This document shows, piece after piece, positions 1-1,232 of a stretch of DNA of 7,836 bases (positions are counted from its first letter, which is position 1; the number at the start of each line of letters is the position of its first letter). Source of the stretch: a virus (Duplodnaviria > Heunggongvirae > Uroviricota > Caudoviricetes); the IMG/VR virus record IMGVR_UViG_2695420687_000010, positions 1-7,836 of that record; one strand, 5' to 3'. The notes under the pieces are model-generated. The model did no database searches. It was not told where the DNA came from and saw only the letters and a program-made list of their open reading frames with translations. The translations under genes were made by a program, and so were the position numbers.

Positions 1-142
1 ATTGTCTGGATCAGCGAAACTGACGCCCGTGAACTGTCCATTGTTGATAACGACTGGGTGGAAGTGTTTAACGCTAATGGCGCACTGACGGCCCGTGCGG
101 TGGTCAGCCAGCGTGTACCGCCAGGCATGACCATGATGTATC
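1..142 (+). CDS. narG: Respiratory nitrate reductase alpha subunit (NarG/NarZ family), internal fragment near the C-terminus; truncated at both ends, 3' end abuts NNN
   Basis: Frame 1 translation from nt 1 reads IVWISETDARELSIVDNDWVEVFNANGALTARAVVSQRVPPGMTMMY, matching from memory the C-terminal region of E. coli NarG; the paralog NarZ cannot be excluded. No start or stop codon; the frame is broken at NNN (143-145). Confidence 0.6.
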
Positions 143-145
143 NNN

Positions 146-1232
146 CCAACCGATGGCCGAATTATGGATGGGCGCACATCCCAAGAGCAGTTCACGTGTG
201 CACAACGCCGCCGGAGAGGTTGTTTCACTGCGCGATGTAATTGAAAGCAATAAATCCACTCTTTTGGGTGAGGCTGTTGCCCGGCGCTTTGGCGAACTGC
301 CTTTCCTGTTCAAAGTATTATGCGCAGCCCAGCCGCTCTCCATTCAGGTTCATCCGAACAAACGCAATTCTGAAATCGGTTTTGCCAAAGAAAATGCCGC
401 CGGTATCCCAATGGATGCCGCCGAGCGAAACTATAAAGATCCGAACCACAAGCCGGAGCTGGTTTTTGCTCTGACCCCTTTCCTCGCGATGAACGCGTTT
501 CGTGAGTTCTCCGAGATTGTTTCTCTGCTCCAGCCAGTCGCTGATGCGCATCCAGCCATTGCTCACTTTTTACAGCAGCCCAATGCCGAACGCTTAAGCG
601 AACTGTTCGCCAGCCTGTTAAATATGCAAGGTGAAGAGAAATCCCGTGCACTGGCAATTTTAAAATCGGCGCTCCACAGTCAACAGGGTGAACCGTGGCA
701 AACGATTCGTTTAATTTCTGAATTTTACCCGGATGACAGCGGCCTGTTCTCCCCGCTGCTGTTGAATGTGGTGAAGCTGAATCCAGGTGAAGCCATGTTC
801 CTGTTCGCCGAAACGCCACATGCCTATCTGCAAGGCGTGGCGCTGGAAGTGATGGCGAATTCCGATAACGTGCTACGTGCGGGGCTGACGCCAAAATATA
901 TTGATATCCCGGAACTGGTCGCCAACGTTAAGTTCGAAGCTAAGCCAGCCAATCAGTTGCTGACCCAGCCAGTAAAACATGGCGCAGAGCTGGACTTCCC
1001 GATCCCGGTTGATGATTTTGCTTTCTCGTTGCATGACCTTAACGATAAAGAGTGCACTATCGGTCAACAAAGCGCGGCGATTCTGTTCTGCGTAGAAGGC
1101 GAAGCCACGCTAAATAAAGACTCTCAGCAGTTGCTGCTTAAACCTGGCGAATCAGCGTTTATTGCCGCCAATGAGTCACCAGTCAAGGTCAAAGGCCATG
1201 GCCGTTTAGCCCGGGTTTACAACAAACTGTAA
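146..1232 (+). CDS. manA: Mannose-6-phosphate isomerase (type I PMI), 5'-truncated; about 32 N-terminal codons missing
   Basis: Translation (..QP)MAELWMGAHPKSSSRV...QVHPNK...GHGRLARVYNKL is near-identical to recalled E. coli ManA from residue ~31 to the C-terminus. Codons 147-152 (caa ccg = QP) precede the ORF-track Met, showing the gene continues upstream into the NNN. Stop TAA at 1230-1232. Several substitutions relative to recalled K-12 suggest a non-K-12 lineage. Confidence 0.93.

What the first reader, a model, noticed from the sequence alone, without database searches (positions are those of the whole stretch)
138..152. Breakpoint 1: narG-like fragment joined to manA codon ~31 through NNN
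The NarG-like frame (frame 1) runs to 142 with no stop. After NNN, manA continues in a different frame from an internal codon (..S-Q-P-M-A-E-L-W..), so manA has no start codon, RBS or promoter here. Both partners are truncated, as expected for a scaffold gap or artificial join rather than a natural fusion.
Basis: seen in the sequence. Interest (0 to 1): 0.4.

Follow-up and report, generated by a model that had tools for sequence, protein, structure and literature searches.

The report
Assembly misjoin, narZ fragment to manA
The NNN at 143-145 marks an artificial join between a piece of the nitrate reductase gene narZ and a 5'-truncated manA gene, in a short draft contig stitched from at least eight unrelated pieces of DNA, so it is an assembly artefact and not a biological feature.

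Summary
NNN sits at 143-145. To its left is an internal 142-nt gene fragment in frame 1 with no stop. To its right manA resumes at the third base of codon 30, in frame 3, lacking 89 nt of coding sequence, its start codon, RBS and promoter.

The left fragment is narZ (46/47 aa, 90% nt to K-12), not narG (37/47 aa, 77% nt).

The window is the whole 7,836-bp WGS contig CDRK01000176.1 (GCA_000936005.1), from an Escherichia albertii-like genome: manA-ydgA is 99.6% identical to E. albertii NBRC 107761.

The contig is a patchwork:
- narZ
- manA-ydgA
- 52 nt of unknown origin
- prophage tail and head genes
- holC-pepA
- an rnhB fragment
- 101 nt of unknown origin
- IncF plasmid genes

Three joins coincide with N or NNN; four have no N.

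In the E. albertii type strain and in K-12, fumA lies directly upstream of an intact manA. In K-12 narZ is about 146 kb away on the opposite strand. None of 5,426 complete E. coli genomes has the two pieces adjacent.

Verdict: a misassembly (chimeric contig), not a natural fusion and not a true-adjacency scaffold gap. Interest is very low, except as a quality flag on this assembly.

The parts
1..142 (+). Internal fragment of narZ (nitrate reductase Z alpha subunit), codons 1116-1162 plus one base. It is cut by the contig end on the left and by NNN on the right, and ends 254 nt before the narZ stop codon.
   Evidence: 90.1% nt identity to K-12 narZ and up to 94.4% to other E. coli narZ alleles. 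46/47 aa identical to NarZ against 37/47 to NarG; 77.4% nt to narG. Pfam Molydop_binding, profile positions 32-77 of 110 only.
143..145 (.). NNN placeholder at the narZ/manA homology breakpoint (breakpoint 1).
   Evidence: Homology blocks end at 142 and begin at 146. The N run is present in the public record itself: the contig fetched from the collection is identical to the window.
146..1232 (+). manA (type I phosphomannose isomerase) lacking its first 89 nt. It starts at the third base of codon 30 and ends with its normal stop at 1230-1232.
   Evidence: Pfam PMI_typeI_cat matched only from profile position 37 of 143, with the remaining PMI domains complete. All 120 listed homologues are 391 aa, against 361 aa encoded here.
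1333..2145 (+). ydgA (DUF945) 5' part, about 271 of 502 codons, colinear with manA. The N at 2123 is a plain ambiguous base (A in the reference). The block 146-2145 is exactly 2000 nt.
   Evidence: 99.6% identity to E. albertii NBRC 107761 over 146-2145 without gaps. Pfam DUF945, profile positions 1-251 of 460.
2146..2146 (.). Single N at breakpoint 2, from ydgA to unrelated sequence.
2147..2198 (.). 52-nt piece of unknown origin, joined without an N to the prophage block at 2198/2199.
   Evidence: No match in E. coli genomes, phages, viral contigs or the fetched loci. The sequence differs completely from the tape-measure gene sequence that precedes the match in the reference prophage.
2199..6874 (-). 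Prophage morphogenesis block of HK97/lambda-like type, running from the major capsid protein (missing its first 37 nt) through connector, head closure, gp10-like, tail completion, Ig-domain tail protein and the two tail assembly chaperones to the first ~158 codons of the tape measure protein.
   Evidence: 99.9% identity to E. coli prophages, e.g. NZ_CP119000.1. Pfam hits.
6875..6875 (.). Single N at breakpoint 4, between the prophage capsid gene and holC. It creates an in-frame HolC(1-63)-capsid chimeric ORF on the minus strand.
6876..7337 (-). holC 5' part, a REP-containing intergenic region and the pepA 3' end.
   Evidence: 92.3% identity to K-12 4,484,088-4,484,556. Pfam DNA_pol3_chi, profile positions 1-55 of 135.
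7333..7479 (-). Internal rnhB (RNase HII) fragment, joined to pepA without an N through about 5 nt of microhomology (TCCAG).
   Evidence: 88.4% identity to K-12 rnhB. Pfam RNase_HII, profile positions 98-171 of 199.
7480..7580 (.). ~101-nt piece of unknown origin, joined without an N on both sides.
   Evidence: No match in E. coli genomes or plasmids.
7581..7836 (-). Fragment of an IncF-type plasmid: the end of one dynamin-family gene and the start of the next. It runs to the contig end.
   Evidence: 99.2% identity to E. albertii plasmid NZ_CP030779.2 and to E. coli plasmids.

Best explanation
Breakpoint 1 is an assembly artefact. The window is a complete small contig of a draft genome assembly (CDRK01000176.1, GCA_000936005.1) of an Escherichia albertii-like isolate. 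The contig is a chimera in which at least eight unrelated blocks were strung together: chromosomal loci from four distant regions, a prophage, a plasmid and two short unidentified pieces.

The NNN at 143-145 is a placeholder written by the assembly, scaffolding or consensus software where a 142-nt narZ block was abutted to a 2000-nt manA-ydgA block. It does not stand for three unread bases of a real narZ-manA junction.

Shown: the block structure, the truncation of both genes, the frame mismatch, the intact fumA-manA arrangement in the closest reference, and the absence of the adjacency elsewhere.

Inferred: that the join arose in silico or from chimeric library molecules. Reads were not available to tell which.
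For: 1. The window equals the whole 7,836-bp WGS contig, Ns included.

2. The homology blocks change exactly at the Ns at 143-145, 2146 and 6875.

3. Four more breakpoints lie in the same contig without any N, at 2198/2199, 7333-7337, 7479/7480 and ~7581-7587. They separate pieces of only 52-147 nt, about one short read long.

4. The blocks map to K-12 positions 1.54 Mb (narZ, minus strand), 1.69 Mb (manA-ydgA, plus strand), 4.48 Mb (holC-pepA) and 0.20 Mb (rnhB), and to a prophage and an IncF plasmid.

5. narZ and manA are on opposite strands in K-12. A simple deletion could therefore not place narZ sense upstream of manA sense.

6. The E. albertii type strain is colinear with K-12 across tus-fumC-fumA-manA-ydgA and has an intact manA 5' end.

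7. 0 of 5,426 complete E. coli genomes has a place covering both sides of the join. The junction pattern is absent from viral and metagenome contigs.

8. The truncated ManA product occurs on this one contig only. The chimeric 172-aa ORF spanning three of the N-free junctions is a singleton among ~15 billion proteins.

9. No promoter-like site lies upstream of the truncated manA.
Against: No reads or coverage data could be examined, so the join is not directly disproved.

The arrangement of narZ relative to manA in E. albertii itself was not seen. Only K-12 was used for narZ, and only one 24.8-kb E. albertii contig for manA.

The other contigs of the same assembly could not be inspected for the missing manA 5' end or the rest of narZ.

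The software and library type are unknown, so the step that created the NNN is not identified.
Confidence: 0.93

Rival explanations
1. A real chromosomal rearrangement in this isolate (deletion plus inversion, or illegitimate recombination) fused the narZ 3' region to manA codon ~30. NNN stands for a few poorly called bases, and the strain would be manA- and narZ-defective.
For: Both flanks are bona fide Escherichia sequence, and the homology ends flush with the Ns. The isolate's own reads were not inspected, so this cannot be formally excluded.
Against: Such a rearrangement would need an inversion as well as a ~146-kb deletion relative to K-12.

No IS element, repeat or att-like sequence lies at the junction.

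The fusion is out of frame.

The same 7.8-kb contig has six more junctions to unlinked chromosomal, phage and plasmid DNA, with pieces as short as 52 nt.

The adjacency is unseen in 5,426 E. coli genomes, and the reference E. albertii has fumA-manA intact.
Confidence: 0.03
2. A true scaffold gap: the two blocks really are neighbours in this genome, and NNN under-reports a longer unsequenced stretch, for example a mobile element inserted between them.
For: Short N runs are what scaffolders write when the estimated gap is near zero (general knowledge of scaffolding software, not tested here).
Against: Whatever the gap length, the missing 89 nt of manA and the last 254 nt of narZ would have to lie in the gap in mutually incompatible order and orientation. 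manA's own upstream neighbour is fumA in both E. albertii and K-12. The other N-marked joins in the contig (2146, 6875) also connect unlinked loci.
Confidence: 0.02
3. This is a sub-mechanism of the artefact, not an alternative to it. The joins, at least the N-free ones, exist in physical chimeric molecules made during library preparation (blunt-end ligation or amplification chimeras) and were assembled faithfully at low coverage. They were not invented by the assembler or scaffolder.
For: The N-free junctions share only 0-5 nt of microhomology, too little for a k-mer graph misjoin. Several pieces are about one read long, at 52, 101 and ~145 nt.
Against: The N-marked joins, including breakpoint 1, look like software placeholders and not read-through sequence. 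No common restriction or linker sequence is seen at the junctions (by inspection). There are no read data.
Confidence: 0.3

Closest known systems
Chimeric (misassembled) contigs and scaffolder- or consensus-inserted short N runs in draft short-read bacterial assemblies
   Same: There are abrupt switches of homology between unlinked loci, some marked by 1-3 Ns. Genes are truncated on both sides. The contig is small and the junctions are seen in no other genome.
   Different: The density is unusually high, with at least seven junctions in 7.8 kb. One block is exactly 2000 nt. The responsible software or library artefact is not identified.
fumA-manA-ydgA locus of Escherichia albertii and E. coli
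   Same: 146-2145 is colinear and gap-free with this locus: 99.6% identity to E. albertii NBRC 107761 and 86.5% to K-12.
   Different: The first 89 nt of manA, its promoter and fumA are replaced by NNN plus a narZ fragment. ydgA is cut after ~271 codons.
narZYWV operon (nitrate reductase Z) of E. coli
   Same: 1-142 corresponds to narZ codons 1116-1162, with 46/47 aa identical.
   Different: Only 142 nt are present. The remaining 254 nt of narZ and narY do not follow.

Membership tests
Type I phosphomannose isomerase (ManA) | Matches to the PMI_typeI catalytic, helical and C-terminal/cupin domains above the Pfam cut-offs | tested here: met
   PF20511 at 133 bits, PF20512 at 72 bits, PF21621 at 91 bits and PF01238 at 47 bits. 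99% aa identity to E. albertii ManA.
Type I phosphomannose isomerase (ManA) | A complete gene: a ~391-aa product with its own start codon and 5' region | tested here: not met
   Only 361 codons are present. The catalytic-domain profile is matched from position 37 of 143. All 120 listed homologues are 391 aa. 89 nt of the CDS are missing.
Nitrate reductase alpha subunit: NarZ versus NarG | Closer to narZ than to narG at both nucleotide and protein level | tested here: met
   narZ: 90.1% nt, 46/47 aa. narG: 77.4% nt, 37/47 aa. All top E. coli hits are annotated narZ.
Natural gene fusion or rearrangement junction | Reading frames are compatible across the junction | tested here: not met
   narZ is in frame 1 and manA in frame 3, so three bases in place of NNN cannot reconcile them.
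Natural gene fusion or rearrangement junction | The junction recurs in independent genomes or records | tested here: not met
   0 of 5,426 E. coli genomes, no match in viral contigs, no match in metagenome contigs. The truncated product is found on one contig only. Power is limited for E. albertii, since only one E. albertii genome contig was available.
Natural gene fusion or rearrangement junction | Reads or PCR from the isolate span the junction | not testable with these tools
   No read data or wet-lab access.
True scaffold gap (real neighbours, unread bases) | The two flanks are adjacent and co-oriented in closely related complete genomes | tested here: not met
   In K-12, narZ is at 1,538,850-1,542,590 on the minus strand and manA at 1,688,576-1,689,751 on the plus strand. 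In E. albertii NBRC 107761 fumA is directly upstream of manA.
Chimeric or misassembled contig | Multiple abrupt homology switches between unlinked replicons or loci within one short contig | tested here: met
   At least seven breakpoints and eight blocks in 7,836 nt.
Chimeric or misassembled contig | Abnormal read depth or discordant read pairs at the junctions | not testable with these tools

The most novel reading that the evidence does not exclude
The contig reflects a real DNA molecule in the culture: a mosaic formed by serial illegitimate recombination among chromosome, prophage and plasmid (for example aberrant DNA packaged with the prophage). On this reading the narZ-manA joint would be a genuine recombination junction whose few central bases were uncallable.
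Probability: 0.02. Interest if true: 0.45.

Novelty: not a real feature. Interest (0 to 1): 0.04.

Why it matters
It matters only as quality control. Contig CDRK01000176.1 should not be used to infer gene content, synteny, prophage insertion sites or gene fusions in this isolate.

Automated gene calls on it have already put spurious proteins into public protein collections:
- a 359-aa 'ManA'
- a HolC-capsid hybrid
- a 172-aa dynamin/RNase HII/anti-pepA hybrid

A scan for gene fusions, pseudogenes or prophage boundaries would be misled by it. Short N runs of 1-3 bases inside 'contigs' of this assembly are useful flags for such joins, but not all joins carry them.

Tried and rejected
- **Junction pattern in viral contigs and metagenome contigs**: nothing found. 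Power is low, because E. albertii is rare there.
- **Origin of the 52-nt piece 2147-2198**, searched in phages, viral contigs and the fetched loci, and of 7480-7580 in E. coli genomes and plasmids: no match, so both stay unidentified.
- **Literature search for CDRK01 / GCA_000936005**: no paper found. The organism label, library type and assembler remain unknown.
- **A full-length ManA of the same allele**, sought in order to look for another contig of the same assembly: E. albertii ManA is merged into E. coli clusters at 90% identity, and the nearest full-length member differs by one residue (Q76 versus R76). The look-up was not possible.
- **Rfam, tRNA and composition profiles**: nothing at or near the junction.
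- **Hi-C or restriction-ligation chimeras**: considered and rejected, because no shared restriction site is visible at the junctions (by inspection).
- **A deliberate manA selectable-marker construct**: considered and rejected, because the allele is native E. albertii with its native downstream ydgA.

Full report
**The observation**

The window has six non-ACGT characters: NNN at 143-145 and single Ns at 2123, 2146 and 6875. Frame 1 of 1-142 is open and reads IVWISETDARELSIVDNDWVEVFNANGALTARAVVSQRVPPGMTMMY. After the NNN, only the frame beginning at 147 is open. It reads QPMAELWMGAHPKSS... to a stop at 1230-1232, while the frames starting at 146 and 148 are littered with stops.

**What the two partners are**

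The left fragment aligns without gaps to E. coli K-12 narZ at 90.1% identity, and to other E. coli narZ alleles at up to 94.4%. It corresponds to narZ nucleotides 3346-3487, which are codons 1116-1162 plus one base of a 1246-codon gene. It is clearly narZ and not narG: 46/47 residues identical to NarZ against 37/47 to NarG, and 77.4% nucleotide identity to narG. Pfam sees only an internal slice of the molybdopterin-dinucleotide-binding domain, profile positions 32-77 of 110.

The right partner aligns to K-12 manA from CDS nucleotide 90 onward. Window 146 is thus the third base of codon 30, and codon 31 (Q) is the first intact codon. The first 89 nt of the CDS, the start codon, the RBS and the promoter are absent. 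No promoter-like site is found in 1-1400. Pfam's catalytic-domain profile is matched only from position 37 of 143, and the other PMI domains are complete. All 120 listed relatives are 391 aa, against 361 codons here.

**Where the window comes from**

An exact-sequence look-up of the ORF 153-1232 found a single public contig: NCBI GCA_000936005.1, record CDRK01000176.1, 7,836 bp. That contig is identical to the window, Ns included. The Ns are therefore in the deposited record, and the window is a complete small contig of a draft assembly.

The organism is Escherichia albertii or something very close to it. Positions 146-2145 are 99.6% identical, without gaps, to a contig of E. albertii NBRC 107761 and only ~86.5% identical to E. 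coli. The ManA part differs from the commonest E. albertii ManA by a single residue.

**The surroundings: the whole contig is a patchwork**

| Window | Content | Best match |
|---|---|---|
| 1-142 | narZ fragment | K-12 1.54 Mb, minus strand |
| 146-2145 | manA-ydgA | K-12 1.69 Mb, plus strand |
| 2147-2198 | 52 nt, unknown origin | no match found |
| 2199-6874 | Prophage block, tape-measure 5' end to major capsid gene missing its first 37 nt | 99.9% to E. coli prophages |
| 6876-7337 | holC 5' part, REP, pepA 3' end | K-12 4.48 Mb |
| 7333-7479 | Internal rnhB fragment | K-12 0.20 Mb |
| 7480-7580 | ~101 nt, unknown origin | no match found |
| 7581-7836 | Two dynamin-family genes of an IncF plasmid | 99.2%, including an E. 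albertii plasmid |

- Three breakpoints coincide exactly with N or NNN: 143-145, 2146 and 6875.
- Four have no N: 2198/2199, 7333-7337 (5-nt microhomology), 7479/7480 and ~7581-7587.
- The N at 2123 is not a breakpoint. The reference has A there and the alignment runs through it.

**Is the narZ-manA adjacency plausible as biology?**

In the E. albertii type strain the region is colinear with K-12 from tus through fumC, fumA, manA and ydgA. It has an intact manA start, ATGCAAAAACTCATT..., about 89 nt upstream of the point where the window picks up.

In K-12, narZ lies ~146 kb away on the opposite strand. A simple deletion would join the antisense of narZ to manA, not the sense strand as seen here, so an inversion would be needed as well.

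A 600-nt query across the junction found no place covering both sides in any of 5,426 complete E. coli genomes. The junction pattern, allowing 0-20 bases in place of NNN, is absent from the viral and metagenome collections. The fusion is out of frame, and no IS end or repeat is present at the join.

The chimeric gene products of this contig are unique. The truncated ManA occurs on one contig only. The 172-aa ORF spanning three N-free junctions is a singleton among ~15 billion proteins.

**Mechanism**

The best-supported explanation, at about 0.93, is a chimeric (misassembled) contig. NNN is a software placeholder at the point where two unrelated sequence blocks were abutted.

Which step made the chimera cannot be decided without reads. 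The possibilities are a scaffolder or gap-closer joining small contigs, or faithful assembly of low-depth chimeric library molecules. The very short microhomologies (0-5 nt) and the read-sized pieces (52-147 nt) at the N-free junctions hint at chimeric molecules. The N-marked junctions look like software joins.

From general knowledge, not tested here: several scaffolders write one or a few Ns when the estimated gap is about zero and no overlap is found.

The exactly 2000-nt length of block 146-2145 is unexplained. It may be chance, or a trace of a pipeline that shreds consensus into fixed-length pseudo-reads. That second possibility is speculation.

**Comparison with the known, and verdict**

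Each block is an ordinary, well-known gene or element: narZ, manA, ydgA, HK97/lambda-like prophage morphogenesis genes, holC, pepA, rnhB and plasmid dynamin-family genes. The junction tested negative for every feature expected of a natural fusion that could be tested here (frame compatibility, recurrence, synteny). It tested positive for the hallmark of a chimeric contig, which is many unlinked blocks.

It is also not a 'scaffold gap' in the sense of true neighbours.

Novelty: not a real feature. Interest: ~0.04, of use only as a warning about this assembly and the spurious proteins derived from it.

Noticed in passing
window 146-2145: The manA-ydgA block bounded by NNN and N is exactly 2000 nt long. 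This may be chance, or a trace of a pipeline working with fixed-length pseudo-reads. It is unexplained.
   Followed up: partly
window 2123: This single N is not a breakpoint. E. albertii NBRC 107761 has A there and homology continues to 2145, so it is a plain ambiguous base 23 nt before the real break at 2146.
   Followed up: yes
window 2147-2198 and 7480-7580: Two short pieces (52 nt and ~101 nt) match nothing in the E. coli genomes, phage, plasmid or viral collections, or in the fetched loci. Their origin is unknown.
   Followed up: partly
window 2198/2199, 7333-7337, 7479/7480, ~7581-7587: These are four further chimeric junctions with no N marker. The one at 7333-7337 joins the pepA 3' end to the middle of rnhB through the microhomology TCCAG.
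   Followed up: yes
window 5694-7064 (-): The N at 6875 fuses HolC residues 1-63 in frame to the phage major capsid protein from about residue 13. This gives a called 456-aa hybrid gene, which is a spurious protein in public collections.
   Followed up: yes
window 7221-7739 (-): A called 172-aa ORF is a triple chimera: a plasmid dynamin-family N-terminus, an unknown piece, 49 aa of RNase HII, and the antisense of pepA. It is a singleton cluster among ~15 billion proteins.
   Followed up: yes
window 7166-7201: A REP-like palindromic element lies in the holC-pepA intergenic region. It is ~92% identical to REP copies downstream of ydgA and near yddE in K-12.
   Followed up: partly
window 372-374 (ManA residue 76): ManA here has R76, where the commonest E. 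albertii ManA has Q76. It is the only amino-acid difference over the 359 residues compared.
   Followed up: partly
window 1290-1310: A terminator-like hairpin (8-bp stem, 6 GC pairs, T-rich tail) lies between the manA stop and the ydgA start. It is consistent with the native manA terminator.
   Followed up: no
window 7581-7836; L088: The terminal block is 99.2% identical to a pair of dynamin-family genes on an E. albertii IncF plasmid (NZ_CP030779.2) and on several E. coli plasmids. This suggests the isolate carries such a plasmid.
   Followed up: partly
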